This document shows positions 253 to 17,900 of a stretch of 20,207 nucleotides of DNA, piece by piece (the stretch's first letter is position 1; each line of letters starts with the position of its first letter). The notes beneath the pieces were generated by a model, which saw only the letters and a program-made list of their open reading frames with translations, was not told the DNA's origin and made no database searches. Position numbers and translations under genes: made by a program. Source of the DNA: Asterionella formosa (taxonomy: Eukaryota). The stretch is from the NCBI GenBank assembly GCA_002256025.1, contig NKIB01012336.1, positions 62,001 to 82,207 on the forward strand, given 5' to 3'.

Positions 253-969
253 ATGAACATGACTACAAAACCAACGCGACGATTTTGGAACGCGGCAGCG
301 ACGCTTATTGCAGTGACGGAGCAACACCCCTTCCTAGTGGCCATGGTAGATGGCTCCTTGGACATGGAGTCCTTTCGATACTACGCAGTGCAAGATGCAC
401 TGTACCTCAAAGATTTTGCAGCATGTCTCCGTCGACTTGGGAATAATACCACAATACCAGAACACTACCAACAGCGACTCCATGCCTTTGCCAAAGGTGC
501 CGAAGAAGCTGAGATGAGTTTGCACCATTCCTTCTTCAAAATGTGGGACATTAGTGCGGATGGAGTGGAACAAATGCCAAACAGTTTGCTGTACACCAGT
601 TATATGGAGCGCATAGTAGCGACCAAGTGCCATGAGGAGGGGCTAGCAGTCTTGCTTCCTTGTTTTTGGATATATTGGCATGTTGGCAAGTGTATGCTCA
701 AGTTGCGACAAGAATTGGGAGACTCAGTGGCGAGACCTACGCAGTTTGACGCCTGGATTGACATGTATAGTGGGGATGAATTTGAAAAGGAAGTTATGGA
801 CTACATTGACATGGTGGACGACTCCTGTAAGGGTGTTGGTGAAAGCACATTGAAGGAAATGGAGAAGCACTTTATCATGTCTTGTAAACTCGAACACATG
901 TTTTGGGATCAAGCACAGTACAAGATGGAGTGGCCCGTCATCGTTGGGTCTGCACAACCTGAGCATTAA
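253..969 (+). CDS. tenA: TenA/THI-4 family thiaminase II (aminopyrimidine aminohydrolase), Cys-type (TenA_C), ~238 aa, no intron needed
   Basis: Family motifs HPF..M.DGSL...FRYY.VQD.LYL..FA, LLPCFWIY (catalytic Cys), WIDMYS..EF and E..FWDQA. The first in-frame ATG is at 253; the ORF-track start at 202 is TTG. Confidence 0.9.
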   Translation: MNMTTKPTRRFWNAAATLIAVTEQHPFLVAMVDGSLDMESFRYYAVQDALYLKDFAACLRRLGNNTTIPEHYQQRLHAFAKGAEEAEMSLHHSFFKMWDISADGVEQMPNSLLYTSYMERIVATKCHEEGLAVLLPCFWIYWHVGKCMLKLRQELGDSVARPTQFDAWIDMYSGDEFEKEVMDYIDMVDDSCKGVGESTLKEMEKHFIMSCKLEHMFWDQAQYKMEWPVIVGSAQPEH

Positions 970-1872
970 CGAACTATAGCATACTATAAATAAGGCTATT
1001 CAAAAATCATGTTCTATGCAATACAAGGTAATGCAACCAGGGCCGATTCATTCTCTTATCTGCAATCAATTTTCACCATTCCTTCATGAAGGAGTGACCA
1101 TGGAAAGCCTTTCAAACAACCTCTCTTATTGGGTCATGGAAGTGCAATGACAATGAACTGAGAAATAGGAAGGCTATAATCTGCTATTACTTTATGTACA
1201 AATGCTTGATAACATGTATATTAAACATGACAAACGCCATCAACTTTCTCCAACCACTCTCATTGCCTGTGACATTATTGACAAAACCAGCCATGACACC
1301 CTCTCAATTAATTCAGTAGTTCGATACTGTCTCAGTATTTTATACAACACCAAATTTTGATACATTCTTGTGATTCGAATGGATATTGGGTGAAGGTTCC
1401 TTGGCTGTCTATATTCCTCCAGAAATCAGTTATCAATCCTGGAAGTCTGGGCATGGTATTCTCATCAACCACAAGGAGTTGCCTTGTGCAGTGCCTCATG
1501 CAGCTTGGAAAGCAACAGCTTCATGAACTCAAATACTGATAGTATTGCAATGCTTGTATTATTCACATGTTGTTCAGTGGATGGCAAAACCCTTTCAGTT
1601 AGTCATTTTTGGTACTTTAGAAATAGCTATATATGTAAACCACATTTCTTCATTATTCTCAAGGGTACCAGAGGTACCAGCAAGTTGCAGTTATTTTGCC
1701 GAAACTGAAATTTGGCGCCAGCAGACACTCAAATTCGAATCCTCCGGTTGAATAAATTCGACATATAGAAATTCCTAACGGTTTTTCGCTGGCCAGTTAA
1801 TTCAATTTTAACAAAATCTAATTTTAAAGAATGATTTTCTGAAAAAACCAGTTTCTGGACCTTGCTACATTT

Positions 1873-1883
1873 GGGGGGGGGGG
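1873..1883. repeat. poly-G tract (G11)
   Basis: Eleven consecutive G, read directly. Confidence 0.9.
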
Positions 1884-1949
1884 TTCCCTCCAATCTCAAT
1901 TCTGAGTGTTGACATTCCTTATTCCAGTATTCTCCTTGTTAACATGCAT

Positions 1950-1964
1950 TTCATAGACTACTAC
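1950..1964 (+). repeat. left copy of a 15-bp direct repeat (putative target-site duplication)
   Basis: TTCATAGACTACTAC, identical to 2341-2355. Confidence 0.9.
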
Positions 1965-2340
1965 AAGGGAATGGCTCAGTTGGTTGGGCACATTGCATTT
2001 GATTTGAAGTTGTGTGGTTAGATTCCCGCAATTTTTCTGAGAAGCAATTGTTGGGTTCCAACTCCACAATCCTCACCATCCAAAGCAGTCTTGCCTGGTG
2101 TGCAAGAAAAAATTGGTTGTCCCCCTACAATCAGTGTGACGCCTTCCTACTAGGTGGTTGGAGTTTTCCCTATCGCTGTGGCTAAGACAATCACCTTTTG
2201 CAAAAGGTGGTTGGGGATTCACCTGCCTATCCATGCTTACAAAACTAGGGAAGCACACAGACTTGTAGGCAGGCCATGCTATGAAATTCCAAGTGTAACC
2301 CGTGGTCTAAGACAGCGCATTATAAGTGAGTTTCAATTTG
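1965..2340 (+). mobile_element. tRNA-derived SINE-like element, 376 bp
   Basis: Starts immediately after the left repeat. Box A TGGCTCAGTTGG at 1972-1983 (tRNA position 8 onward). D-stem GCTC/GGGC at 1974-1977/1986-1989 (positions 10-13/22-25). Box B-like GGTTAGATTCC at 2016-2026 (positions 52-62). Anticodon and acceptor stems do not pair. Flanked by an exact 15-bp direct repeat. Confidence 0.72.
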
Positions 2341-2355
2341 TTCATAGACTACTAC
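2341..2355 (+). repeat. right copy of the 15-bp direct repeat (putative target-site duplication)
   Basis: TTCATAGACTACTAC, identical to 1950-1964. Confidence 0.9.
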
Positions 2356-3799
2356 TATATACCTGTATGAATGTACAGAAGTGCAAGTGGCTGTGGTACA
2401 TACCGGTATGCATCATATGAACATATTTTTTCCATTACCATTATGATAACAGAGCATGAAAAAATTAATATTAATTTTAAATTTTTTACAACTGCTCAAC
2501 AATTTAATTCGTTTCTTATATAGAATAAAAGTATCGATAGCAAGTAGCAAAAGAAATGTTCACAACACTTTGACATTCATTGCAAAATAGCTAAAAAAGA
2601 AAATCAGCGGAAGAATGGTGCTCAACCACAATGACAATATCTCCATGATTCCATGCCTGATCAAAACCCAAATATTTCTTAATTGATCCTTGAAACGCGC
2701 TGTTCATGATTGACCTGTAAAGATTTTTATAGCAACAGAACTAGAAAGTAACATACACGTGCGCCATTCAACTGTTTCAGCATGGAGTCATTTAATTGAG
2801 AGCAAAACACCTGCATTAGCCAGGCAGCACACCAACTCACTCATGCATGCAAAAGATCGCTCTTGTTCTGAAATGGGCTACCAAAATGTCAAATAAATGT
2901 AGATAACAATAACAGATCAGTGTAACTTATCGCTCCCATCTCTGATAGTATGATGACAAAAACTGAAAATAATCTTTCCTTAAAAGACTTCATTACGGAT
3001 ATCCATGTTGCATCACTTCACATTCTTCTTCTATCCCTTCTGCTTTAAAAGGTACAGTCACTTAATGAAAAAGCCTGTTCAAATTTCAAATGAAGAATTT
3101 AAAGAAAAACAGTATGAGTTATCGTTCCTTTGGTGATATGATAAGAAAAAACCCAAACAAACTAATCTTACCTTAAAAGCATCCAGTAGTGTGCATCATT
3201 ACATCATCAGAATGAAGGATTTATCAATGGTGAGACGCTGGTTGTAAGGATTGTCCCCAGCCATTTTGGAACAATATTGCTCATTGTTGTGTGAAATGTG
3301 GTTTTTACATATTCAGATGGTCAAACGCACATCCTAGCGCTGCCATGCTGATTTCCTCTTTGTACCACAACAACGTACAATCTATACGAATTTTTTTGGC
3401 GCAGCCTTGCTAATAGTTTCGTTCGGACCAATTTCTGAGGCTACAAGTGCGACTCTAAACAAAGATGATAAGTAGGAGAGGGTACAGCGAATGATTACTT
3501 CTATTAGCTCATGCACTGGATGACCTACTAGACTTCCATTAGAGTAACAAGTAAACACGTCATGGAATTTGTATTGAAAATAAATCAACTTATAGATTTA
3601 AAAAATTTAATCTTCATCCCTACAAATTTTTGATATGTCCTTTCTTCGCCAATTAAATATATCTCAAAAATATCTTAGAAGGAGGATGTTAACTCTGAAG
3701 AATTGTGATGAAATTTTGTTCTACCATGTCTTCCTCAATTTTCAGTGTGATTCGTACATTCCTGGTAATAGATACAACGACAATGACAATGAAAACAAG

Positions 3800-4600
3800 G
3801 CGACACTTGGAATAAGATGTTTTATTGGTGAGGGATAATGTCAAATGCAATGAGTACTTGGCCACTGTAGCCATGAGTTCCTTATCGCCTTCCACATCAT
3901 CCAACCTTAAAAAGACGTAGTCGTTCAAGGTCATTTTCTTGCTGCTTCCGTCTGGGTAATACCAAAACCAAGAGTTCTAAATGCCCACTACAAGTTGCTG
4001 ACGATTTCCTGTGACCTGAAATCATCTGCCCATATGCACGATCAACTGCCTCGCCACATGCCTCAATATTCTCAATGCCACCAAATCTTCCTATGAAGAC
4101 AACGATGTCGACAATGACGATGATGATGATGCCTTGGATTCTTGGTGCTTGTTCGAAATCCTAGTTGCCAGCCCCGAAGCAATGTTACTTAGCTCTTGTG
4201 GTTTGAACGATTTGACACATTTCTTGTCTCCATCTAACAAATCAGCAAATCATTCAATCACAGTCTCATTTCCCTTGGCATAAATTCTACTTGTTGCAAA
4301 GGCCTATATGGAATTACTAAACTCTTGAGGCTTTGGAGCTGTTTGGTCCAAGCTCTTTAGTATGCTTGCAAAAACAGCTTCCGTTGCACTCTTGGATGTA
4401 CTGAGGGCCCAAAGGAGATTGGCAATTTTTTGATTTTGTTGGTCGCTGACAAGGGTTGTAAAAGTGCTCATTGTAAAACACAGCATCCAAAAGTGTCTCT
4501 GATAGCAATGATAGTGTTGGATTCCAATCGACTCCAGCACTTGTGTCAGAAACTTGAATGATATTGCCACAAGGTTGTCCATGACTTGTTCCGTCAGACC
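3800..4600 (-). pseudogene. degraded fragment of an OPR (octotricopeptide repeat)/RAP-type helical-repeat RNA-binding protein gene; boundaries approximate
   Basis: Reading through stops and frameshifts gives four repeat cores: QKIANLLWALST, KPQEFSNSI*AFAT (TAG at 4304-4306 where W is expected), FKPQELSNIASGLAT and FRSQEIVSNL*WAFRTLG. The first three are spaced 35 and 43 codons apart. Frameshifts near 4030 and 3935. Confidence 0.65.
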
Positions 4601-5968
4601 GTCGTTTCAAATGAAATTGTGAAACACCCTTCAATTTGATTCTAGTCTTTTTCGAATCAAAAACTATTCGAATGTGTGGTTGTGTTGGACTGGGTGATGG
4701 ATAGTTGTGCACAATTTTCCCTTATAATGTATTACTGGTATATCTTTGTTATGTGAATGAATAAGCTGTATTTGAATGTGGATTCAAAAAGAGACATCAA
4801 AGGATAACAGGAAGACAACGGTGTTTGCGTAGCAAGAACAAGGAGGCACAGCTCTCACAGCTGCTGCTTTGAAAAAGATCCGCAAAGCCAAGGCTTTTCG
4901 TACCACTGCTAATGAATAATCCACAACGACAAATGATACAAGGCGTGACTTGGTCTCTTTGGAAGCTGCAGCATCAAGTGTGAATAACAGTTGAGCATGA
5001 CCATGATGACGACAAATCGGAGCAGGAGGAAAGGATTGGGACAATTATTACGCTTGTTAGAGCGGATTGGTGAGTACAACAGTGAAACACTGAATGTGAT
5101 TATAGGTACTTATAGTCGAATTTTCGATTTGATTGCTTCCATGGTCCGTTTTGATTGCTTCCATCATTGTTTGTTGCTCCGCACTGTTGTTTTGTTTCGA
5201 TTGTATCTATCTGCATAAGAATTAATGTATTTATCGATGACTACTCTTCGACTATGTATTGTTGTTGATCGTATTTGTTGATTTGTATAGTCATTTACCA
5301 TGATGTTAATATTGCCGCCAAGCAATGCTTTTCTTGTTCTAACATGCTTTGCTACATTTCTACTATGAGTTTGTATCAAAAGCTACATAAATACTCAGCT
5401 AGAGGGAGTAGATAGTAGTGCTGGAGCAGCCTGGAGATCATACTCAATCAGAATGGATTGGAATGGAATGATGATCAGGCTTGTTTGGTGGGAGGAATGA
5501 CTGTGGGCGGTAGGACTGCAACTTTTGTCATGCTACTACAGCGATGTGAATGGTTGCAGCAGCCAAATCATCTACACTACATAGCGATGCAGGTCTAAAT
5601 TGGGTTCAGCTTTTTTCCTTCTTATTTCAGTCTTTGATTGTGTGGTGATGGAAAGTCAATTGCCTGTGTAAGCACAACAATGTCACAATGCATACATCTC
5701 CATTGAAACTCCTATTTTTACTTCATTTCTAAATGAGAACAATTTTTTCTTTTTCTCATTTGATGCTACTTATTGCATCCCATTTCATGCTTTGGTTGCT
5801 CCAAACATCATGTTCAAATTTTATTGATGTTGCATGTTACAATCATTTTTGTGTGTTTTATGCTTGTTGTACCCTTTCTCTGTATTTTACTGTTATTCTG
5901 GCTGTCATGCTAAAATCGGCAAATTTAATGCCGAAAAATCGATGTGCCCTATATTGGCTGCTCCTAAA

Positions 5969-6012
5969 TAAAAATTACTTAAACAAATTGCTTAGAGCCT
6001 AAAAATTACTTA
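5969..6012 (+). repeat. three short direct repeats AAATTRCTTA (TAAAAATTACTTA twice)
   Basis: Copies at 5969-5981, 5985-5994 and 6000-6012. Confidence 0.6.
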
Positions 6013-6361
6013 GAAGTACCCGAATGGCAAGACAATAGCTGGAGCGGGAATTGCTGCTTCACTGTAATAACCTTGGTTATTTGTTTTCAAGTCTGACTTG
6101 TTGGCATCAGACTTTGGACTCAAGTCCAGAGTTGGTATAAATAACTAATAATCTTATTTTTTCCACAAATATTACTTATGTGCCTGGTACCTTCTGCTGG
6201 TAGTTAGATACTTCACTAGGCACCTTGCACCCATGCAAAGGTGCCAAATAAAACGGTTATTTTGACATGACTTGTGGTAGAACTACTGGTATATATCTTA
6301 AAATAATATACACACACCCTGTACTGGTATCCATAGTAGATATACTGGTAGTTCATCTCCT

Positions 6362-6784
6362 GTCGCTTTTTTACTATTATTTGATCCTACTCCCTGGAGC
6401 AATGGAAAGCCTGGAATGATTTTGTTCATGGAGCCTCAATCACTCACTGCTTAACAGACATGCCATACCTGCACTCTTATGACCACAGTCACCTCCGCTT
6501 ATGCAAATCAATCTTATCAGTCTCAGCTGATGAACAGGGACATCTCATTGGTCTACCATTCTCCACTTGTCTCATGAATGCTCCCACTGCTCTTGCTGCT
6601 TGTTTAGAAATATATAAATCTAGTGAAACACATCTAATTCATCAACTCTGACAAGATCAATGCCAACAGGGCTCCATCTGCCAATTTCTTATTCGACGTG
6701 TTCTCCCTCGCCAGCCCTCTCATCCTGTCTGACAACATTCTACATTCCAAGTGGGCGCTACATGCCCAGGTGCGACTGAAAAAG
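6362..6784 (+). mobile_element. probable 5'-truncated 3' end of a non-LTR retrotransposon (LINE) ORF, decayed
   Basis: One frame reads RFFTII*SYSLEQWKAWNDFVHG...LPFSTCL...LAACLEIY...HQL*QDQCQQGSICQFL. This resembles the IW...W..RN..HG C-terminal motif of LINE polyproteins, with apparent R-to-C/H/stop and W-to-stop decay. It ends in an A-rich GAAAAAG. ATCTCCT occurs at 6355-6361 and 6791-6797 as a weak possible TSD. Confidence 0.5.
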
Positions 6785-6849
6785 TTGATAATCTCCTACA
6801 TAAGCGTACTACGGGACTTGAATGTGAATCGGGTAGTTCATCAATTTAT

Positions 6850-6879
6850 TACCTGGTACCTGGTACCAGGTACCAGGTA
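6850..6879. repeat. perfect 30-bp palindrome built from 7-bp units (ACCTGGT x2, ACCAGGT x2)
   Basis: TACCTGGTACCTGGTACCAGGTACCAGGTA equals its own reverse complement. Confidence 0.95.
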
Positions 6880-7326
6880 CCTGCAAGCTTACCGATGTAC
6901 TAATGCATACACCATACGATTCATACATGATTTCCTTTGCTTTTGCTGTATGTACTTATTTATAGCACGTTACTGGTATATTAGTCAACTATAATTCTGT
7001 TCAACATCAGCATGCAACTTCTGCTTTGAGGAGATAAAGATTGGTTAAAATACATAACGGGATACTTTTTATCACCGCTTCACAGAAAAGTATCGAAATT
7101 GTCAGACGTGCGGTATTCTAAATCATTATTATTGTACATACCTATATTTGGATATCTGATGTTATCAGCCAAAACACCGCCACGCTTCAACACGGAATAC
7201 TTTCCATCACTTGGAACCCCTTTGAGCCTCTCTAAAATACCTGTGTATAAAACGAACCTTTTTTCCAGATTGAACCGGATAACCTGAAAGTGGACTTCCC
7301 ATTGCACGAAACCGAAACGACTCACA

Positions 7327-8391
7327 ATGAAAATGATCCTCCGCCCTCTTCCGTTCCTATCATCCGTGATGGTGGTACTATTTATAGTTTTCTTAGGCGT
7401 TCGTCAAACCAGCATGTTGGCTCCGACACAAATGGAACAGGATTCTCCCTTGTTGAATCAACGATCTGCCAACAAATGTCAAATTGTTCCTATTGGAGCA
7501 TGTACCTTCTGGAATAGAACTGTGCCAGAGCCAGGAAGAAAGAGCAGTTGGGTATGGACCAACTCCTGTCCGCCATCACGGGGATACGCACTTAACACAA
7601 CAAGGAAGGAAATAATAGTCCCGAGAATTAATGGGACGATACGTCGCCTGGATGAAATTACAAACAATCAAACATCATTTGTGTTCTTTGGGTCTTCTCA
7701 TATTCGAGAGCTATACAAAGAATTCATTCGATTGCACAATGGTTTTGACTTCAATAAAGTGCTCTCAAGGCAAGTCAACATGGTACATTCCGGGGTAAAA
7801 AACATGGCATGTGATCCAAATCGAACAGGCTATAAGGATGGTCTTTATGGGGTCGACCTAGATGCATGTGGCCTTCCTGGAAGACGAATGATACCAGAAC
7901 TTGGGGAGAGGGTTGCAATAGGCTTCAAGACATTTTTGCACACACCCATCGCCGATGAAAGCTTTGTCGATTGGTTAGCAATGCAAGCTTTGAGATATCC
8001 TCAAGTCATTGTGACGGATGTGGGAGTGTGGGGCCCACGGGGCAAAAAAGTGACTGCAGAGCTGAATTACACACTCACGTTAAATGAAGAGATTGACTAC
8101 AATTTAAACTGGCTACGAACTACCTTTCCGACTTCGGCTATAATCTTTATCGTGGAGCATCAATTTTATGACATTGGAATCGAGCCGTCGGTGAATCCTC
8201 GATTGCTTGAGTTTGTGATGAAGGACAAGAGGTCTGTGCTGGTAAGGAAGGACTTAATTATGCAGCAGATGCCCGCGAGAATGAAGTGTGACCATGGATG
8301 TTCTGGCCCGGTGCTTGTTGTGATCGTTCATTTAATACTTGACTGGCTAGAAGCTGAGAAGAAACGTAATTCTGGAGAATGCATTGTCTAA
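7327..8391 (+). CDS. type-II membrane SGNH/PC-esterase (TBL-like) superfamily protein, putative polysaccharide O-acyltransferase/esterase, 354 aa
   Basis: Uninterrupted ORF with an N-terminal hydrophobic anchor and a Cys-containing stem. FVFFGSSHIRELY resembles the GDS block, VIVTDVGVWG resembles NxGxW, and C-terminal CDHGCSGP resembles DCxHWC. The CDS is solid; the family assignment is moderate. Confidence 0.7.
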   Translation: MKMILRPLPFLSSVMVVLFIVFLGVRQTSMLAPTQMEQDSPLLNQRSANKCQIVPIGACTFWNRTVPEPGRKSSWVWTNSCPPSRGYALNTTRKEIIVPRINGTIRRLDEITNNQTSFVFFGSSHIRELYKEFIRLHNGFDFNKVLSRQVNMVHSGVKNMACDPNRTGYKDGLYGVDLDACGLPGRRMIPELGERVAIGFKTFLHTPIADESFVDWLAMQALRYPQVIVTDVGVWGPRGKKVTAELNYTLTLNEEIDYNLNWLRTTFPTSAIIFIVEHQFYDIGIEPSVNPRLLEFVMKDKRSVLVRKDLIMQQMPARMKCDHGCSGPVLVVIVHLILDWLEAEKKRNSGECIV

Positions 8392-8521
8392 GCAAAATAA
8401 ACAATTTTGAAAAGCTTGTGCTTTGACTACTGAATTCAAAATCACTAGTGTTTTCATCGTCTGCAAAATCTAAGTGAAGCTAATTCTAATTGGATGGAAG
8501 CAATCTTCTACTACTTGGAGC

Positions 8522-9634
8522 TTACAACTCTCCTAGGGTCGACATGTCGATCACTGCACGCGTAGCACCAACTTCACCGGCATTCAAGGCCTTGAAGTGT
8601 TCACTGGCATCCTTGGCATGAATAATTTCGCAGTCTGGAGAAATGTTGTGCTCAGCACAAAAGTCAAGCATTGCTTGCGTCTCGGGAACGCCACCGACCA
8701 AAGATCCTTCAACAGAGTATCGGCTCATCAGGAGGGGAAAGGCAGAAAGCGAGAAAGGCGCAGGAACACCACCAAGAAGGACAAATTGACCGCCAACCGT
8801 GAGTGTGCCCATCAATGAAGCAATATCATGACTTGCAGACACAGTATCCAAGATTACATCAAAGGTGTGAGCGGCGGCCTTCAATGCTTCTTCGTCGGTG
8901 TGAATCAAAATACCTGCACCGAGTTCCTTGGCCTGTTGCTCCTTTTTGTTGTTACGGGAAAAGACAGTCACTTCCGCTCCCATCGCCTTTGCAATCTTGA
9001 CTGCCATATGACCGAGTCCACCAAAACCGACAACACCAACATGCTTTCCCTTTCCGCCACCCTTTTGAAGAATGTGACGGTTAAGAGGAGAAAAGGTAGT
9101 GATACCAGCACAAAGGAGCGGTCCTGCATGTTCAAGCTTAATATTCTCGGGCACGTGATAAGTGAAGTGCTTGTTGACAACAATCTTGCTTGAATAGCCA
9201 CCGTTGGTATGGTGTCCAACGCATTCCTCAAAATTCGCCCCTTTACCTTCGGGGAATGGTGTAGAGTAGGTCTGAATCGAGTGGGCGCAATGTTGCTCGA
9301 GTCCTTCGTCACAAAGCTTACAACTGCGGCAACTTTCGACGAAACATCCTACTGCGACACGATCGCCAACTTTAAACTCGGTCTCGCTCACAGAACTTCC
9401 AACAGCGGCCACGACTCCAGCAATCTCATGGCCAGGAGCGATGGGGTAAAGGTTCACGCCCCAATCGCCGTTGCAGGCATGAAGGTCAGAGTGACACATT
9501 CCACAATATTTGATGTCAATGGCAACATCGTGCGGGCCTGGTTCGGGTCGGCCGAACTCATGCTTTCCCAACTCGGCAGTGTTATCAAATGCACAGAGTG
9601 CGATAGTTCCGGTTCCTTTCTCAATGGTGGCCAT
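8522..9634 (-). CDS. Zn-dependent medium-chain alcohol dehydrogenase/aldehyde reductase, cinnamyl-ADH (CAD/YahK/ADH6-like), copy A, 370 aa
   Basis: CGMCHSD, GHE, structural Zn site C-x2-C-x2-C-x7-C, GPLLCAGITTFSPL, GFGGLGH and SR after the Rossmann strand (NADPH-type). Start set at ATG 9634 by alignment with copy B. Confidence 0.93.
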   Translation of the reverse strand: MATIEKGTGTIALCAFDNTAELGKHEFGRPEPGPHDVAIDIKYCGMCHSDLHACNGDWGVNLYPIAPGHEIAGVVAAVGSSVSETEFKVGDRVAVGCFVESCRSCKLCDEGLEQHCAHSIQTYSTPFPEGKGANFEECVGHHTNGGYSSKIVVNKHFTYHVPENIKLEHAGPLLCAGITTFSPLNRHILQKGGGKGKHVGVVGFGGLGHMAVKIAKAMGAEVTVFSRNNKKEQQAKELGAGILIHTDEEALKAAAHTFDVILDTVSASHDIASLMGTLTVGGQFVLLGGVPAPFSLSAFPLLMSRYSVEGSLVGGVPETQAMLDFCAEHNISPDCEIIHAKDASEHFKALNAGEVGATRAVIDMSTLGEL

Positions 9635-10739
9635 GATTGCTGCAAAAGTGTTTAGTAAAATTATGTTTATATTATGGGTATGAAAGATTTCTGATGGGCC
9701 ACATATTATCATGTGGAGTACCTGGTAGCTCGTCTACATCATTATGGTGAGCTGACTCATCGACCTTTGTGGTATTACCGGTATTATATTGTACTCCATT
9801 ACCGTTATTTTGTACATATGGGGAGGGGAGTATCTGCTTTGATCAGGAAATGTCGCAGATTATCACCATGTCGTAGAAAGATTCCTGTCGCAATTCTTTC
9901 TTGTTCGATTTTGATCTGTTCTACGTTGTGGTATGTTATAGTATCGACCAGGTATGTAAAATAATATCCAGCAGAAAGAAATGTGTTTACCGGTAACCAT
10001 ATGAAACAGGTACTCTGGTACCTGGTGGTACCCACTTCTGTTCGATTTGACATGCTATGATCATCAATGTATGACCATGTCCCTGGTGGTCATTTTGCTT
10101 AAATAAACAATCTAATATGGGATAAAGATAGCTAAAGTTTTAGTTTCAGCACAATTAATTACCACATCTTGCTGCTACTCTACCATACCAGGTCCTGATT
10201 GCCGGCAGGAATGATGTGGGGACTTTGAAAATTCCTTCCTGTTCGTTCTTGTTCCTTTGTTCCCTTGCAACCCGACGAACTCTTAAATATACGGATAGTC
10301 GCCATGATCTCAAAAAGAAGGCTTGACGATGTGAAGCGAAACTTTTCTACAGCTTTCAAGCAAAAATCAAACGGTCACACTAATAAATGTATACATTTCG
10401 ACACTTGATATGCTGTTGACTCATTAGTAACAGTACCAGGTATGTGCTGGTTACAGATCACACCAGCCAAATTTTGCCACGCCATTTCATCTCACGTCAG
10501 GGTGAGGCGATTCGTTTACAAAGCATACCCAGCTAAGAAGTATCCTGATGATGCCTACATAAGAATCATCGTTAAAATTATTTCTAATTACGTGACTAAT
10601 GCTTCGAAGTTAAGCCATTTGTCATCCAGAAGGATGCATTGATAAAACCATATCAATGATTTTGAAAAAGAATTTCAGTGGAATCTAAATCAGCTGATTC
10701 TTAATTTGATGGAAGAAGTCAATGTCCACTACTCATCAA

Positions 10740-11852
10740 TTACAACTCTTGGATGGTAGACATGTCGATCACGACACGAGTGGCACCAACTTCCCCAGCG
10801 TCCATAGTCTTGAATGCGTCACTGGCATCCTTGGCATGAATAATTTTGCAGTCTGGAAAAATATTGTGATCGGAACAAAAGTCAAGCATTGCTTGCGTCT
10901 CGGGAACGCCACCGACCAAAGATCCTTCAACCGAGTGTCGGTTTCCCAAAAGGAAAAAGGCAGAAAGGGCAAAAGGTGCTGGAACAGCGCCGAGGAGGAC
11001 AAAATGACCGCCAACCTTGAGTGTTGCTACCATTGCAGCAATGTCATGACTTGCAGACACAGTATCCAAGATTACATCAAATGTGTGAGTGGCGGCCTTC
11101 AAAGCTTCTTTGTCTGCGTGAATCAAAATACTGGCACCGAGTTTCTTGGCCTGTTCTTCTTTCTTGTTGTTGCGAGAAAAGACAGTCACTTCTGCACCCA
11201 TTGCCTTTGCAATCTTGACTGCCATATGACCAAGCCCACCAAAACCTACAACACCAACATGTTTTCCTTTACCACCTCCCTTTTGAAGAATGTGACGGTT
11301 GAGAGGAGAAAATGTAGTAATGCCAGCACAAAGGAGGGGCCCTACGTGCTCAAGCTTGATATTCTTAGGCACATGATAGGTGAAGTGCTTGTTGACAACA
11401 ATCTTCGTTGAATAGCCCCCGTTGGTGTGGTAACCGACGCATTTCTCAAAGTTTGCTCCCTTACCGTCGGGGAATGGAGTAGAGTATGTCATAACAACGT
11501 GATCACAGTGTTGCTCGAGTCCTTCATCACAAAGCTTGCACTTGCGACAACTTTCAACAAAACATCCTACGCCGACACGATCGCCAACTTTAAACTCGGA
11601 ATTGCTAACAGAACTTCCAACAGCGGTCACGATACCCGCAATCTCATGGCCAGGAGCAATAGGATATCTATCACCGCCCCAATCGCCTTTGCAGGCATGA
11701 AGGTCCGAGTGACACATTCCACAATATTTGATGTCAATGGCAACATCGTGCGGGCCTGGTTCAGGGCGACCAAATTCATGTTTTCTTAACTCTGCGGTGC
11801 GGTTAAATGCACAGAGTGCGATAGTTCCGGTTCCTTTCTCGATAGTTGCCAT
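10740..11852 (-). CDS. Zn-dependent CAD/YahK-like alcohol dehydrogenase/aldehyde reductase, copy B (tandem paralog), 370 aa
   Basis: Same motifs as copy A. Aligns to copy A without gaps, with about 53 substitutions by manual count. Confidence 0.93.
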   Translation of the reverse strand: MATIEKGTGTIALCAFNRTAELRKHEFGRPEPGPHDVAIDIKYCGMCHSDLHACKGDWGGDRYPIAPGHEIAGIVTAVGSSVSNSEFKVGDRVGVGCFVESCRKCKLCDEGLEQHCDHVVMTYSTPFPDGKGANFEKCVGYHTNGGYSTKIVVNKHFTYHVPKNIKLEHVGPLLCAGITTFSPLNRHILQKGGGKGKHVGVVGFGGLGHMAVKIAKAMGAEVTVFSRNNKKEEQAKKLGASILIHADKEALKAATHTFDVILDTVSASHDIAAMVATLKVGGHFVLLGAVPAPFALSAFFLLGNRHSVEGSLVGGVPETQAMLDFCSDHNIFPDCKIIHAKDASDAFKTMDAGEVGATRVVIDMSTIQEL

Positions 11853-12141
11853 CGTTGATAAATTAATTATAATTATGTATTAGATTTTGTCACTGTTTTT
11901 GCGTCTAGTTGATTAGCTGGTTCTGGTTTTGTGAGGGAAACAAAATGTGAAAAGTCTTCACGCGAAAGCTGTGAAAATAGTGCGAAAGCTCCTTCATGTT
12001 CATTTTTGATCCATCGGTGTTCAGGAATCGATCCACAATGGTTACTATTTGGCGTTCATTTTCATCCTTTGCAGCGATTTGTGCTACACTATATCATGGA
12101 TTTCTCGTCAGCCAGTTGTTGTCTTTGGTGGCACATCATTC

Positions 12142-12178: not shown

Positions 12179-12759
12179 TTTTCGGTATCAGTTTTACCCG
12201 TTATAATTGATCGAAATATATGCCGATGTAGGGCCCAATGATTTCTTTTATTTATTTATGTGAATCTACAGCTACCTAATACTGTGTATGATGTTTACAC
12301 CTAAGAAATGGTCGCAAGAAATACGTTCTGTTTCTTTATGATCTATTGATATATGCACGTATCATTTCTGCAGCATACCGGTCCTGTAGTAATCTATAGC
12401 GGGTATATTGTTCTTTCTCCTAGTGAGTCGTGGCGCCCTATGAATGACTTATCTCTCAAGCTAGTATATGCTAACTACATAGGTACTCCTACCAGGTACA
12501 GATCATTCTGCGGTGTGAGTGTCAGCGACGGGCTGGCTCATAATGGACCGAAATGTTGTCCCGTTTGAACAGGACGAGTATATAATTGTAGATATATATT
12601 TCTAATATATTTCAGAACTTCTTCTACTATAATACAGTAATATATAGCTTGTTAGAGTCGTGGACAACAAGACAATCAAGTTTAAGTCCAAGTCGCAACA
12701 TTTTCTGTTCACAAAATCTAGTGAAAAATTTCTAGCAACAAGGCTTCAAATATTCTAAA

Positions 12760-13185
12760 ATGACAAACCTTCGTCGCCTCGTACAGCTTTTCTCCATTGG
12801 GGCTATTCTTGGTTTCTGCAACTTAGTTGTGGCGGTGGATAACTTGTCTCACCTTCGTACAAGAAACCTAATGCTAACTAAAAAGCCAACTAGAAAGCCT
12901 ACCAGTAGACAGCCAAACGGCAGGCAAGCGCCAACGAAAGCTCCAACCAGGAGAAGTCCAACGAAACCTACTGTTCCTCTACGGAATCCTTGCCATTTTT
13001 GCATACATGGCGGGCCGCCCACGGCAACGCTTACCTGGATTTACACCAACGTCACGAAACGGTCTACAGGCTTTTATTGTAGAGAGTACTACCAAAAATC
13101 TCTGTATACACACGCAAACGATCCTTATTGCATTGTTGCTCGGCGTCATGTGAATCAAGTCAAATGTGGCTGTCGTGGGGCTTAA
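12760..13185 (+). CDS. small secreted basic protein: signal peptide, RxL pro-segment, K/R/P/T-rich PTxxPT linker and a six-Cys domain (CxxC...C...C...CGC), 141 aa
   Basis: ATG in an AAAATG context. Hydrophobic residues ~7-25, then HLRTRNL, TKKPTRKPT...PTKAPTRRSPTKPT and CHFC...CGC. Confidence 0.85.
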   Translation: MTNLRRLVQLFSIGAILGFCNLVVAVDNLSHLRTRNLMLTKKPTRKPTSRQPNGRQAPTKAPTRRSPTKPTVPLRNPCHFCIHGGPPTATLTWIYTNVTKRSTGFYCREYYQKSLYTHANDPYCIVARRHVNQVKCGCRGA

Positions 13186-14904
13186 TTTCTCCTTCACTTT
13201 CCAGTTGTCGCGGATATCTTCGATCGCACCATTCTTATTCTGATATGGTGATTGCTTCACGATTGGGTTTGCACTCTTTTCTGAAGAACAGAGCCCTAAA
13301 TCAATTGTGATTGCGACAAAACTTCCTGACAGAGCAGTGATGCCATCATTGTTCTTAAGCTAGTACCTAAATAAAACATAAAGTTACAGCAGTACAAGAC
13401 ACATTTGACGACAGGGCTGTCATTAGTTCTAATACCTGCTTACTTTTCACGTAATGGTACTTATACTGCATTACCTTCTTAGTATTATGCGTATTCCCCC
13501 TGCTCACATTTCCGCAGCAGAACAAATTTTTCAATTCTAGAGCATGCATCATGTAGTCTCCGAATTTTTGTCAAAACATAGTAGGATGATATCGTAACAC
13601 CGATGCACCATTACTGTAATTTCTTGATGATACTGCTCGATTCACTTTGTTGACAGAATCGCTTGGCCACCACGTCGTGTAGCTAGAAGCGATCAGATGC
13701 GCGCTGTCGAGCAATCTCTAGTACTAGTATATAATATGGTCAAACATGGGATGACATTCTAGGCCATAGCTGGTGGCTGGCTTTAAGATTCGGTGAATAA
13801 AGTTGCAACAAGAACCAGCTAGCTATTTTTGGATGAGTTTCACAGGTATAACAATCCCACCAGTGGCAACAAACTACCTGGTACCATCGTCAGGCAGCAA
13901 TGGCGCTGAAATTTAGAACTGTTCACATTCCACTTGCTGCTAGTATGTTTCTGTCTCCCCCAATTATCTCTAGCTAATCAACACAATACTGATGTGCCAA
14001 AAAAGTACATCAGGAAAATACGACAACAAATTTCTGGTCCTCCTATTAACCTAGGATATTTTTTGTACCGGTATCCGCAGTTAACTACCGGTACTCTTCT
14101 GAAAATCAAGCATCAAGAATGTATTGATCATGTCTAAGAACAATTATGTAGCCTCCGTTTACATCACATCCGCATGACGCAATATTCCTCATCCCTACAT
14201 ATGAATTGATTGGGAACACTATTGTATTCAGTATTTTTGTAAGTGCTTCAGTTAATGCACCAATTTTGGATCCCGGTATCCTTGTATGTATTGTGCACCT
14301 CTAGTGTACCATCTACATCAGCCAGCCAAACTACCGGTAGGCTGCCAGGCTATTATAGAGTATAAACAAATTTCATTTGTTTAAGGTTGTTTATTTACCG
14401 AAATGACAAGTACTGTGTTTTATATACCATCATACGCACAGAAACGCTTTTACGTGTATCGATACTCTACTCCTCTCTCATCTCATCCGGTATGTGCTCT
14501 TACAGGAGTCATTATCTAATACATACGACGACGGTTATACCATTGGGAGAAATCCAGAATTTAGGTCATTTGGTTGGTTGAAAAGATTTAGGTAATGAAA
14601 AATTATCGAAATTTTTGCTAGGAAAGGAAGTAACGGTAATAAATACGTAGGCATGTGTACGAACGTAAATCTTAGTTTCAATTTCGCGCCAACTCACATA
14701 TGAAATGTACATGTCATACCACCATCATCAGTAGAACCTTGTCAAGAATCTCAAGAACACAGGAGCAAGAATGGTGATGTTGAATTCCGATAACAAACGA
14801 CTTGGTGACGACTCATTGTTGGACAGATAAATGTGCCTTGGTTTCGCGTTCGTTATTCCGAACCGTCTCGCCTGCAATTGTCAATCGAACGAAAGAAAGG
14901 CGTC

Positions 14905-17900
14905 ATGGAAGACAAGATACCGTCGAAGGTTGGAGTACCTCAGTCCGATGAGATAATAGAAAGCGCTAGCATGGATCTGGAACCTTATCCTATTGCTGAC
15001 AAGAAAGCGACTCCAACTACTGTCACTAAACTGGAGGATGAGAAATCATTCAAGTCGAAGAAATCAATTGGATCGTTTGACGATCCACCTGCTTCGGACT
15101 GGTCTGTGAATGCCCATGACGACGGAACCAAGGTCGATGACCTCATCCGGAGTTGGGAAGTGATAATTTCTGCTCCGGGACAATCTGACGACGAAGGTGA
15201 GGCACTTGCCTCCCCTATCTTGACACCCTTGACACAAACGTCATTGTCGCAGCACGAGGATGCGAACAGCACCGCGGAAGTACAGCCGTTCAATAAAATA
15301 GGATTCTTTGCCGAACGAGGATTCTTGGAAACGTTTTTGGACGATTCATCGCTGGAAGTGTTTGAAGACAACATCAACGATAATGTTCCCTCGACCAAGT
15401 CGCCGAACAAGTCGCAAGTAAGAGACTTGCTTGCTCAGTCTACCTCAGCCGGGAAATCGGCATCGAACGAAAAGAATCTAGCTCCTTTACCGGATGTAAT
15501 GTCAAAAGCGAAACCAGAAACATTGACGCCAAATGTAGATCCTGTACCATTAAACGGGGAAGCCAATTTATCTTCGATCGTTCCATCTTCCAAGATCCAA
15601 GCCACGTCTACGAGTGTGGAAGCAAGCACGAAATCAGAATGTTCGGCCCCTGTTGTACATCATGTCCCATTGAAGGGGGAAGGTATTACATCTTCCGTCG
15701 CTACATCTTTCAAGTTCCAAGTAGCATCTCCGAGCGTAGAACCAAACCTGAAACCAGAAAACTCGGTACCTGTTGTTGATCCTGTGGAAAACAAACAAGG
15801 AATCATTATCTCTCCCATAGTTTTCCCTTCCAAGGTCAATCTCGAGACTTCGAATGTAGAAGGAAACGTAAAACCAGAAAACTTGGTCCCTGTTGTAGAT
15901 AATGTGGCAAACAAAGGCGAAGTCAATATCTCCCCTTTAGTTCTCCCTTTCAAGGTCAATGTCCTGTCTCCGAGTGTGGAAGCAAACATAAAACCAGAAA
16001 ACGAAGGAATAGTCAATATCTCCCCCGTAGTTCTTCCTTCCAAGGTCCAATTTGTTTCTCCGTTTCCGAGTGTAGAAGCAAATCTGAAACCAGAAAACTC
16101 GGTATCTTTGGTGGAACCTGTAAATGGCAAGGTGGTAAATTCGATGGGATTTAATCAAGTTGCAGCTGGATTGATAGATGTGGTGGATACATTTGCTCAG
16201 AATGAAGTATCACCAGTTGAAGCGCCTGTTGTGTTTGAAAACACAGCGACCTTGGTCGAATACGAAGTTCCAGGGCACTCGGATCTTCCAATTTCTATCA
16301 AGGGTTCACATAATGAAAAGAATGGATCAAACAAGTTAGTTGGCAATGAAGAGAAGGACGACAAGTTGTCGAATGTGGGTGCGTTTGTGAGTATTGCAAC
16401 GGTGGCTACAGTCGAAACTCTGGCTTCGTGGGCGACCCCTGAAGTACCAATGGTAGCGAGTCAAGTGGCTTCTATTGAAAGAACACCCTCGATCGAGAAA
16501 GTACCTAAACTGGCCGATTGCAACATACAAACAGAGAAACCTTTGGCCACATCGCTCCAGAAACCGACTGTGATCGAAGGGACCACTCCAGAAAATATTG
16601 CTGAGGATAAAGCCTTGAGACTTTCTGAGGAGGTTACCCCAGTTGCGAAGGAAGAAGTGTTATCACATTCCCTCAAAATTGACACATATGATGAAATTAA
16701 CATTCAGGAGCTGGATATTGACAGAGTGTCACCCGAAGTTCAATTGTCTAGTCGAAATATTAAGATGGAGATGGAAGATTACTCACAACACGAGGTGGAA
16801 GCAGGCAAAAGAGTTGGCGACGAAGAGAAGGAAGGCAACTCACCGAATGTTGTTGCTTCAGTTGGTATTGCAATCGTGGAAACAGCCACCGCTGTTGTGG
16901 TAACCTCTGTGGCGACCTCTGAGGTACCAATGGTAGCGACTCCAAGGACTCCTATTGAAGATCCTTCCTTTACTAAAAACGCACCTCAATTAGCTGACGG
17001 TGAAATGAACATGGAGGCACCTGTTCATACCGAACTATCCGCAACGCTCAAGGAGCGGGCTGTGATCGACGAGTCAGCTCCAGAACAAATTACTGAGAAA
17101 GCTTTGGATCCTTCGGAGGAAGTAGCGCCAGTTGCAAACCAAAAAGTCGCATCAATTGTCGAGAACGATGACAGCGACAATGACGTATTAATTCAGGAGC
17201 AGGATATTGACCAAGCGTTTCCTGAGTTATCGGAGGTTGAATCATTTAGAGATATTGAAATGGGGGACGACGACCCCCAAACCAGGGCATCGACAATCTC
17301 ATCCGATGAGAAATATGATCCTTTCTGGAAGAACCAAAAGTTTCTATTAATTGCTTTGGTTTTTCTTGTTGCTGTCATTGGGGCTGTGGTTGGCGCTATC
17401 ATCGCCACATCCGGCAGCGGTGGCTCGTCGATTTCAAGTTCCTCATCTAAAAATGTGCCTCCTTTGCTGGTTACACCGTCTCCCACCCTGTCACCCTCGC
17501 AAAGTCTCTTAAGCTTGATCACAGGCGTTGCTATACGAAAGGGCGCTGAATTTGTAGACCCCGATTCGTATCAGTCCCACGCTTACAATTGGCTTGCAAA
17601 AAATTTCACATACGGCACTTACAGTGACGCTCAATTAGTTCAACGATATTCTCTCGCTTGTCTCTATTTCTCAACTGACTTGGAGACCGAAGGAGGGTGG
17701 AATCTATCTACTGAATGGCTATCGTATCTTACAGCATGCGATTGGTTTGGTATAGTCTGCAATGCGGCAGGAGATATCACTGCATTGAACTTGGGGTCAA
17801 ACAATCTGGTGGGTGAACTGCCAGCCGAGGTATCCTTGTTAACTACTGCATATTTGCTTTGGTTCGACTTCAACAACGGACTGACGGGAACAATTCCGAC

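What the first reader, a model, noticed from the sequence alone, without database searches (positions are those of the whole stretch)
1950..2355. Candidate new tRNA-derived SINE with an exact 15-bp target-site duplication
Seen: TTCATAGACTACTAC flanks a 376-bp segment exactly. Counting from the first base after the left copy, standard tRNA numbering fits with no adjustment: T8 opens box A (TGGCTCAGTTGG), the D-stem GCTC/GGGC sits at 10-13/22-25, and GGTTAGATTCC sits at 52-62 (box B, with A at C56). The anticodon and acceptor arms are lost. About 300 bp of non-tRNA body follow, ending in a T-rich GAGTTTCAATTTG with no poly-A. Established: a tRNA head with an internal Pol III promoter, an unrelated body and a ~15-bp TSD is the SINE architecture produced by target-primed reverse transcription. 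Inference: a full-length copy of a SINE family in a lineage where, to my knowledge, SINEs are poorly catalogued. Whether it has been described cannot be checked here.
Basis: partly seen in the sequence, partly recalled or inferred. Interest (0 to 1): 0.78.

Follow-up and report, generated by a model that had tools for sequence, protein, structure and literature searches.

The report
High-copy tRNA-like SINE in a diatom
The 376-base segment is one copy of a short mobile element present in hundreds of copies in a freshwater diatom genome; it carries a worn tRNA-like front end and was pasted into another repeat, duplicating 15 bases of its target.

Summary
An exact 15-bp direct repeat (1950-1964 and 2341-2355) brackets 376 bp.

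- **Copy number.** Contigs of four public runs pile up on 1965-2340 at about 40-600 times the single-copy flank depth.
- **Shared ends.** Many copies start at 1967 with unrelated upstream DNA, and similarity stops at 2339.
- **Box B.** 70-78% of the copy depth, and the one fetched copy L001, read C at 2020, which restores GGTTCGATTCC.

The element sits inside a second repeat family. Copies of that family elsewhere lack the insert, so they serve as empty sites.

The host is a diatom by protein similarity. It occurs in freshwater metagenomes.

Best reading: a tRNA-related SINE inserted by target-primed reverse transcription (confidence about 0.7). Caveats:
- tRNA homology is weak.
- A T5 run (T7 in most copies) follows the head and should stop Pol III.
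- There is no poly-A tail.
- No partner LINE and no TSDs of other copies could be examined.

It is a new member of a known kind. Diatom SINEs are so far only "putative" calls from automated annotation.

The parts
1950..1964 (.). Left copy of the 15-bp target-site duplication
   Evidence: Exact direct repeat. Paralogous copies of the surrounding repeat carry a similar sequence only once (tables 5 and 5c).
1965..2340 (+). SINE-like element, 376 bp, one copy of a high-copy interspersed family
   Evidence: raised depth, a shared 5' break at 1967 and a shared 3' end at 2339. L001 is 82% identical over 1966-2170; four predicted proteins from other assemblies are translations of further copies. No second copy lies in the window.
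1965..2039 (+). Degenerate tRNA-like head
   Evidence: ARAGORN calls exactly 1965-2039 once its thresholds are lowered to 80%. The majority-corrected head and L001 are called at 85%. Shuffles give a call in 28 of 1000 and 6 of 1000. The Rfam tRNA model scores 13.6 bits, E 1.7, on the L001 head only. Default ARAGORN and Rfam find nothing in the window.
1972..1983 (+). Box A-like motif TGGCTCAGTTGG at element positions 8-19
   Evidence: Direct reading; regular-expression control.
2016..2026 (+). Box B-like motif GGTTAGATTCC; most copies read C at 2020
   Evidence: table 3: C at 2020 in 7,683 of 11,031 (X1), 343,624 of 438,900 (X5), 354 of 495 (X7) and 785 of 1,086 (X8) depth units. L001 also has C.
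2032..2036 (+). T5 run directly after the head (T7 in most copies)
   Evidence: One search lists the T-runs; 2037 reads T instead of C in 8,702 of 11,369 depth units (X1). L001 has T7. That such a run would terminate Pol III is general knowledge, not tested here.
2053..2065 (+). Second T-arm-like box, degenerate in this copy (GGGTTCCAACTCC)
   Evidence: L001 has GGGTTCGACTCCC here. Loose-end consensus behind 2058 in 18, 27 and 13 contigs (X1, X5, X8) reads GACTCCCAC.... ARAGORN at 80% thresholds also calls 2000-2074.
2188..2213 (.). 26-nt palindrome in the body, flanked by a 20-nt direct repeat (2152-2171 and 2205-2224, 80%)
   Evidence: The bin 2165-2215 is a second depth peak.
2282..2335 (+). 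Possible 3' terminal hairpin, weak
   Evidence: -14.3 kcal/mol, z -1.96, and 12 of 200 shuffles fold at least as well. The majority change at 2313 would break one inner pair.
2341..2355 (.). Right copy of the 15-bp target-site duplication
1682..1949 (.). Left part of the outer, older repeat into which the element inserted (approximate start)
   Evidence: depth rises from 32 to 300-4,150 (X1) from bin 1655-1705 onwards. The single-copy contig X1 record 1 ends at 1712.
2356..2420 (.). Right part of the outer repeat (approximate end)
   Evidence: depth is 400-550 (X1) up to 2419 and 36-45 after 2420. Joints 1954/1955 to 2360-2388 come from contigs of other copies of this repeat that lack the insert.

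Best explanation
Window 1965-2340 is a full-length copy of a short, non-coding, non-autonomous retroposon (SINE). The family has on the order of hundreds of copies in the genome of a freshwater diatom.

Structure:
- The first ~75 nt are a worn tRNA-like module. It keeps box A at positions 8-19 and box B at 52-62, the internal promoter type of RNA polymerase III.
- Most copies then have an oligo-T tract and a second T-arm-like box.
- About 270 nt of unrelated body follow, ending without poly-A.

Inferred mechanism: an RNA copy of the element was reverse-transcribed at a staggered nick in the chromosome by the endonuclease and reverse transcriptase of an autonomous LINE (target-primed reverse transcription). 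Filling in the stagger produced the 15-bp duplication. The target lay inside an older repeat of another family.

Shown: the repeat family, its shared ends, the TSD of this copy, insert-free paralogous sites, conservation of the promoter-like boxes, and the absence of coding capacity and of terminal inverted repeats.

Inferred: tRNA descent, Pol III transcription, the + orientation, and mobilisation by a LINE that recognises the 3' tail.
For: 1. **TSD.** An exact 15-bp direct repeat bounds the segment. Any such repeat within 1 kb appears in 5 of 300 shuffles.
2. **High copy number.** In four runs from four studies, summed contig depth over the element is far above the single-copy flank. X1: 1,415-10,669 against 32.4. 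X5: 53,152-519,897 against 849. X7: 70-485 against 5.8. X8: 136-1,067 against 5.4. At single positions up to 116 different contigs carry one variant.
3. **Shared ends.** Loose ends before 1967 occur in 18 (X1), 9 (X7) and 11 (X8) contigs. Their median loose length is 200-255 nt and agreement is only 0.46-0.50. X1 record 5 and X8 record 30 continue beyond the element but stop matching at 2339. In L001, similarity starts at 1966.
4. **Empty paralogous sites.** At least 7 contigs (X5 counts) in the six listed joints from 1954/1955 to 2360-2388, plus rows in table 5c, join the two flanks with only 2-32 other letters between. One of them (X1, 1940 to 2366) carries a single target-like sequence.
5. 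**Promoter boxes conserved while the tRNA stems decay.** 70-78% of depth restores C56 in box B. L001 does the same. The box A + box B pair occurs once in the window, against 3 of 500 shuffles.
6. **Sub-threshold tRNA signals that begin at the element's first base.** ARAGORN at 80% thresholds calls 1965-2039. The majority-corrected head and L001 are called at 85%. Shuffles give 28 of 1000 and 6 of 1000. tRNA is the only Rfam family matching the L001 head (13.6 bits, E 1.7).
7. **No coding or DNA-transposon features.** There are no terminal inverted repeats, no tandem structure, stops in all six frames and no Rfam family.
8. **Further copies elsewhere.** Four predicted proteins from ENA and JGI assemblies are translations of the family and map to 1980-2225.
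Against: - Default ARAGORN finds no tRNA in the window or in L001.
- Rfam finds no tRNA in the window head, even in a 96-nt search. The L001 score of 13.6 bits is far below the gathering score of 29.
- ARAGORN at 80% thresholds makes 14 calls in the 20-kb window, so such calls are common background.
- The T-stem pairs at only 2 of 5 positions, even in L001 (direct reading).
- A T5 run at 2032-2036 (T7 in about 77% of depth and in L001) directly follows the head. Two T4 runs lie at 2164-2167 and 2196-2199. By general knowledge these should stop Pol III after about 70 nt, so full-length Pol III transcription is doubtful.
- There is no poly-A or simple-repeat tail, and no LINE was seen: no long ORF scanned in the window has a reverse-transcriptase domain.
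- TSDs of other copies were not seen. L001 is cut at its 3' side.
- Depth falls towards the 3' end, the opposite of what 5'-truncated copies would give. This may instead reflect subfamilies with other tails, or broken alignments.
- All depth figures are sums of contig depths in metagenomes, not copy numbers.
Confidence: 0.7

Rival explanations
1. The element is a retroposed non-autonomous element whose tRNA likeness is superficial or no longer functional. It would be transcribed by Pol II or as read-through from neighbouring genes, not from an internal Pol III promoter, and still inserted by a LINE enzyme. A variant of this reading: the RNA strand is the minus strand, and the tRNA-like part is its 3' end.
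For: An oligo-T run (T5 here, T7 in most copies) lies right after the head, with two further T4 runs. tRNA scores are below threshold. Depth falls from head to tail, which would fit 5' truncation if the minus strand were the RNA. In the majority sequence the A6 run at 2107-2112 is interrupted (2110 T, 2112 G), so the minus strand has one T-run fewer.
Against: Box A starts at element position 8 and box B at 52, the spacing of real tRNA genes. Box B is kept or restored in most copies while the stems decay, which suggests selection on the promoter. The ARAGORN relaxed call starts exactly at the first base of the element.
Confidence: 0.2
2. It is a DNA-level mobile element: a MITE or other non-autonomous DNA transposon, a solo LTR, or a Helitron fragment.
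For: It is short, non-coding and high-copy, with defined ends. MITEs are reported in a diatom (PMC5859163, passages).
Against: It has no terminal inverted repeats. A 15-bp TSD is longer than those of the DNA transposon superfamilies I recall (2-11 bp) and of LTR elements (4-6 bp). The ends are AAGG... and ...TTTG, not TG...CA.
Confidence: 0.05
3. It is a heavily 5'-truncated LINE copy, or part of a larger composite repeat, and not a unit of its own.
For: The flanks are themselves repeated, so a longer composite unit had to be considered.
Against: Many contigs break at the same 5' position, 1967, with unrelated flanks. Insert-free copies of the outer repeat exist. L001 has a wholly different, 29% GC upstream flank. 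No ORF or RT similarity was found.
Confidence: 0.03

Closest known systems
tRNA-derived SINEs in general (the tRNA class of SINEs; Kramerov and Vassetzky 2011 is cited in the passages; I did not read that review)
   Same: Length of a few hundred bp; non-coding; a 5' tRNA-like head with box A and box B at tRNA positions; an unrelated body; a TSD of about 15 bp; hundreds of dispersed copies with common ends.
   Different: An oligo-T tract lies directly behind the head. There is a second T-arm-like box. There is no A-rich or simple-repeat tail. The partner LINE is unknown. tRNA homology is only sub-threshold.
'Putative SINE' annotations in diatom genomes: Phaeodactylum tricornutum (PMC5859163), Cyclotella cryptica (PMC7466962), Skeletonema costatum as cited in PMC8147415, and Pleurosigma pacificum (PMC12803021); passages only
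   Same: Same host group and the same class label.
   Different: Those are automated calls with no structure given in the passages I read. P. tricornutum has 13 putative SINEs covering 1,454 bp in all, about 110 bp each. Here there is a 376-bp unit in hundreds of copies with defined ends and a TSD. Sequence relatedness could not be tested. The supplementary tables of those papers were not opened.
infSINE families of the oomycete Phytophthora infestans (recalled, no call; only P. infestans small-RNA papers appeared in the listing)
   Same: tRNA-related SINEs in another stramenopile, a lineage once thought poor in SINEs.
   Different: Different host class.
Dimeric tRNA-head SINEs such as Twin of Culex (recalled, no call)
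   Same: Two tRNA-related boxes in tandem at the 5' end.
   Different: Here the second unit is only a T-arm-like hairpin, and the two are separated by an oligo-T tract.

Membership tests
tRNA-derived SINE | Short (under about 700 bp) and non-coding | tested here: met
   376 bp. Stops in all six frames. The longest frame finds no protein relatives.
tRNA-derived SINE | Many dispersed copies sharing the same 5' and 3' ends | tested here: met
   depth is 40-600 times the flank. 18, 9 and 11 contigs break at 1967 with unrelated flanks. Two contigs that continue stop matching at 2339. L001 starts at 1966.
tRNA-derived SINE | Target-site duplications of variable length flanking the copies | tested here: inconclusive
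   This copy has an exact 15-bp TSD. No other copy could be read with both flanks, because L001 is cut at the contig end.
tRNA-derived SINE | Empty (pre-insertion) site with one copy of the target | tested here: met
   Only paralogous sites were seen: at least 7 contigs (X5 counts) in the six listed joints from 1954/1955 to 2360-2388, plus rows in table 5c. One holds a single target-like sequence. No allelic empty site was seen. Junction-bridging contigs with 0-5 differences are present in all four runs.
tRNA-derived SINE | 5' head homologous to a tRNA | tested here: inconclusive
   Default ARAGORN finds none. Rfam tRNA scores 13.6 bits against a gathering score of 29, on L001 only, and finds none on the window. 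Relaxed ARAGORN calls 1965-2039; shuffles give 6-28 per 1000.
tRNA-derived SINE | Internal Pol III promoter: box A and box B at tRNA spacing | tested here: met
   Motifs at positions 8-19 and 52-62. One match in the window against 3 of 500 shuffles. Box B C56 is present in 70-78% of depth. The consensus motifs used in the test are recalled, not taken from a call.
tRNA-derived SINE | Transcribed full-length by Pol III, with no internal terminator | tested here: not met
   T5 (majority T7) at 2032-2036/2038 and two T4 runs on the + strand. Transcription itself was not testable.
tRNA-derived SINE | 3' tail that is A-rich or a simple repeat, or is shared with a partner LINE | not testable with these tools
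   There is no A-run or tandem repeat at the 3' end. No genome and no LINE library are held. No RT domain was found in the window's long ORFs.
MITE / non-autonomous DNA transposon | Terminal inverted repeats and a short TSD of fixed length | tested here: not met
   No inverted repeat involves the termini. The TSD is 15 bp.
Solo LTR | TG...CA ends and a 4-6 bp TSD | tested here: not met
   The ends are AAGG... and ...TTTG, and the TSD is 15 bp.
5'-truncated LINE copy | Variable 5' ends, a shared 3' end, and remnants of RT coding | tested here: not met
   The 5' end is common to many contigs. No coding similarity was found.

The most novel reading that the evidence does not exclude
This is the first structurally defined, high-copy SINE family of diatoms. 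It has a compound head (box A, box B, an oligo-T tract, then a second T-arm-like box) and a specific non-poly-A tail. That would imply a LINE with stringent 3'-end recognition that was recently active in a freshwater diatom. Hundreds of loci could also each release a ~70-nt tRNA-like Pol III transcript ending at the T tract. A diverged copy (82% identical) in a contig labelled marine, beside very AT-rich DNA, would mean the family reaches beyond one species.
Probability: 0.4. Interest if true: 0.5.

Novelty: new member of a known kind. Interest (0 to 1): 0.4.

Why it matters
SINEs were long thought to be absent from most unicellular eukaryotes. In diatoms they are known only as small "putative" classes from automated repeat annotation (passages read).

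A family with clear ends, a TSD, insert-free paralogous sites and hundreds of copies would give diatom genomics several things:
- a curated reference SINE;
- indirect evidence for LINE activity;
- presence/absence markers for strains of a freshwater diatom found in many lake and river metagenomes;
- a test case for how an oligo-T tract inside a SINE is tolerated.

It does not change how SINEs are understood in general.

Tried and rejected
- **Own genome:** none is held, so no genome-wide BLAST or consensus was possible.
- **Other copies in the window:** none.
- **Public collections:**
  - The metagenome contigs pattern scan gave one copy, L001.
  - Genome contigs gave two loci that share only the 21-nt pattern.
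  - Three viral-contig scans gave 0, 0 and 14 loci. None of the 14 has any BLAST similarity to the element.
- **Protein route to more copies:** the window's 77-aa frame found no candidates. The L001 frame found four products without names or accessions. Their DNA could not be fetched.
- **Earlier findings of this scan:** nothing.
- **Rfam:** no family at gathering score in the window. Only chance-level matches lie near the element.
- **Whole-element RNA fold:** unremarkable (z -1.34). Head fold z -1.39. 3' hairpin z -1.96. None is used as support.
- **Allelic empty site:** no joint skipping exactly 391 bp is among the 15 listed joints (50 more are not shown). That is no evidence of fixation beyond the junction-bridging contigs seen in the four runs.
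- **tRNA isotype of the head:** ARAGORN's relaxed readings disagree (Ser-tga in the window, undetermined in L001). I assign none.
- **L001's flanking ORF:** no Pfam family above cutoff.

Full report
**1. The observation**

The 15-mer TTCATAGACTACTAC stands at 1950-1964 and again at 2341-2355, 100% identical. That leaves 376 bp between the copies. The neighbouring bases differ on both sides, so the repeat is exactly 15 bp. Only 5 of 300 block-shuffled windows contain any exact 15-mer direct repeat within 1 kb.

- TGGCTCAGTTGG at 8-19;
- GCTC at 10-13 and GGGC at 22-25;
- GGTTAGATTCC at 52-62.

A loose box A + box B pattern (the consensus motifs are recalled) occurs once in the whole window on both strands, at 1972. 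It occurs in 3 of 500 shuffles.

The element ends in ...GAGTTTCAATTTG. It has no A-run and no tandem repeat.

**2. The host**

No genome is held for this window. The window carries long uninterrupted ORFs:
- a TenA-family protein;
- two tandem zinc alcohol dehydrogenases;
- an LRR protein;
- an actin-related protein.

Among the best 120 relatives of the actin-related protein, every one that carries an organism name is a diatom. The names are Seminavis, Nitzschia, Mayamaea, Pseudo-nitzschia, Cylindrotheca, Fistulifera and Bacillariaceae MAGs, at about 39-51% identity. Closer relatives (69% and 56%) are unnamed.

The stretch 1500-2900 is held by 20 of the 24 listed public runs, from 15 studies. 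Those with an organism label are freshwater, lake, riverine, aquatic or "algae" metagenomes; the four best holders carry none. I therefore treat the host as a freshwater diatom that is not among the named genomes in the protein collection.

**3. A repeat family with these exact ends**

I laid Logan contigs of four runs from four studies (X1, X5, X7, X8) on 1400-2900, accepting 80% likeness or more. Depth here is a sum over contigs. It is not a copy number, and it could include relatives in a metagenome.

| Run | Single-copy flank (1400-1650) | Element (1961-2317) |
|---|---|---|
| X1 | 32.4 | 1,415-10,669 |
| X5 | 849 | 53,152-519,897 |
| X7 | 5.8 | 70-485 |
| X8 | 5.4 | 136-1,067 |

The excess rises and falls with the abundance of the organism across the runs. 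Up to 116 different contigs carry one variant at a single position. The order of magnitude is hundreds of copies.

The ends agree with the TSD:
- 18 (X1), 9 (X7) and 11 (X8) contigs stop matching just before 1967. They go on for a median of 200-255 letters that share no consensus (agreement 0.46-0.50).
- X1 record 5 and X8 record 30 run on past the element but stop matching at 2339.

The only copy I could fetch, L001, is 82% identical over 1966-2170. Its upstream DNA is unrelated and 29% GC. Its 3' part is lost at the contig end, which looks like library-adapter sequence (my recollection of the adapter).

Four predicted proteins from ENA and JGI assemblies are plain translations of further copies. 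They map to 1980-2225.

The window holds no second copy.

**4. It is an insertion, nested in an older repeat**

The flanks are repeated too, at a lower level. X1 depth is 300-4,150 from about 1655 to 1960 and 400-550 from 2318 to 2419, then returns to 36-45.

The six listed joints from 1954/1955 to 2360-2388 (at least 7 contigs by X5 counts), plus rows in table 5c, each at about single-copy depth, join the two flanks with only 2-32 other letters between. These are other copies of the outer repeat that lack the 376-bp insert. One of them (X1, 1940 to 2366) shows a single sequence resembling the 15-mer. This is a paralogous empty site.

I saw no allelic empty site. Contigs with 0-5 differences bridge a junction in all four runs:
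- X1 records 4 and 6;
- X5 record 15;
- X7 record 17;
- X8 record 31.

**5. The head**

At 2020 (position 56), C replaces A in 70% (X1), 78% (X5), 72% (X7) and 72% (X8) of the depth. L001 also has C.

tRNA descent as such is only weakly supported.
- Against:
  - Default ARAGORN finds nothing.
  - Rfam finds no tRNA in the window head, even in a 96-nt search.
- For:
  - On the L001 head, tRNA is the only Rfam family found. It matches full-length at 13.6 bits, against a gathering score of 29, with E 1.7.
  - With ARAGORN thresholds lowered to 80%, the window is called at 1965-2039, starting at the first base of the element.
  - The L001 head, and the window head corrected at three majority positions, are called at 85%.
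- Background:
  - Shuffles of the head give a call in 28 of 1000 (80%) and 6 of 1000 (85%).
  - The 80% setting makes 14 calls in the whole window.

The stems are poor. The T-stem pairs at 2 of 5 positions. Promoter boxes kept while stems decay is the usual state of an old SINE head (general knowledge).

Most copies also have a second T-arm-like box, GGGTTCGACTCCC in L001. It appears in the loose-end consensus behind 2058 in 18, 27 and 13 contigs (X1, X5, X8) and is degenerate here at 2053-2065.

**6. What does not fit**

- A T5 run directly follows the head (2032-2036). In about 77% of the depth, and in L001, it is T7 (2037 reads T). Two T4 runs follow at 2164-2167 and 2196-2199. By general knowledge such runs terminate Pol III. 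So the internal promoter may yield only a ~70-nt RNA. The retroposed full-length RNA may instead come from read-through or from another polymerase.
- There is no poly-A. A LINE that recognises a specific tail would be needed, and none could be looked for.
- A 3' hairpin (2282-2335) is weak: z -1.96, and 12 of 200 shuffles fold as well.
- Depth declines towards the 3' end. I cannot tell subfamilies with other tails from broken alignments or from the opposite orientation.

**7. Rivals**

- **DNA transposon or MITE.** Excluded as far as tested: there are no terminal inverted repeats and the TSD is 15 bp.
- **Solo LTR.** The ends and the TSD do not fit.
- **Truncated LINE or larger composite.** It does not fit the common 5' end, the insert-free paralogues or the unrelated flank of L001.
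- **A retroposon whose tRNA-like head is not a working Pol III promoter.** This is the serious rival (about 0.2).

**8. What is known**

Three full-text searches found no description of a characterised diatom SINE family. The term sets were:
- diatom + SINE + tRNA-derived;
- diatom + short interspersed + transposable elements;
- diatom + non-LTR retrotransposon + SINE.

From passages only:
- P. tricornutum has 13 "putative SINE" covering 1,454 bp, reported as the first in a diatom (PMC5859163).
[quoted passage not shown] - Pleurosigma SINEs are mentioned only for their GC content (PMC12803021).

I did not open the supplements, and Dfam, Repbase and SINEBase are not available. Prior description in those libraries therefore stays open.

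**9. Verdict**

The element is a new member of a known kind: a tRNA-related SINE in a diatom. It has two unusual details, the internal oligo-T tract and the second T-arm-like box.

Interest is moderate (0.4). It is useful for diatom genome annotation and as a sign of LINE activity, but it is not surprising in principle.

Noticed in passing
window 1655-1964 and 2356-2420; also 2573-2674 and 2726-2900: The DNA around the element is itself made of repeats. X1 depth is 300-4,150, against 32 for single-copy DNA. At least 7 contigs hold other copies of the outer repeat. Its class, orientation and ends were not worked out. ARAGORN at 85% thresholds calls a tRNA-like shape at 1791-1874 on the minus strand, which is at background level.
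   Followed up: partly
L001 230-1180 (metagenome contig labelled marine): The one fetched relative of the element (82% identical) sits next to DNA of 29% GC with a 163-aa ORF that matches no Pfam family above cutoff. The contig has low coverage by its name, and its end looks like a library adapter. A different host, a chimeric contig or a wider spread of the family are all possible.
   Followed up: partly
window 8467-9676 and 10682-11889: Two tandem zinc-type alcohol dehydrogenase genes lie on the minus strand (ORFs 8522-9733 and 10740-11879). They are 83.6% identical at the DNA level over 1,215 bp, a fairly recent tandem gene duplication.
   Followed up: no
window 14809-18216 (+): A 1,135-aa open frame has leucine-rich repeats near its C-terminus and diverged internal DNA repeats (15511-16121 and 16338-17211, 64-86% identical).
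   Followed up: no
window 6850-6881: A perfect 30-nt palindrome (self-match on the opposite strand in the window's self-BLAST).
   Followed up: no
window 1873-1884: A run of about 11 G lies inside the outer repeat. Paralogous contigs show small deletions at 1872-1875.
   Followed up: no
window 7288-8391 (+), 1394-1708 (+), 4317-4721 (-), 12736-13185 (+): Open frames of 104-367 aa with no Pfam family at E up to 1. Whether they are genes is unknown.
   Followed up: no
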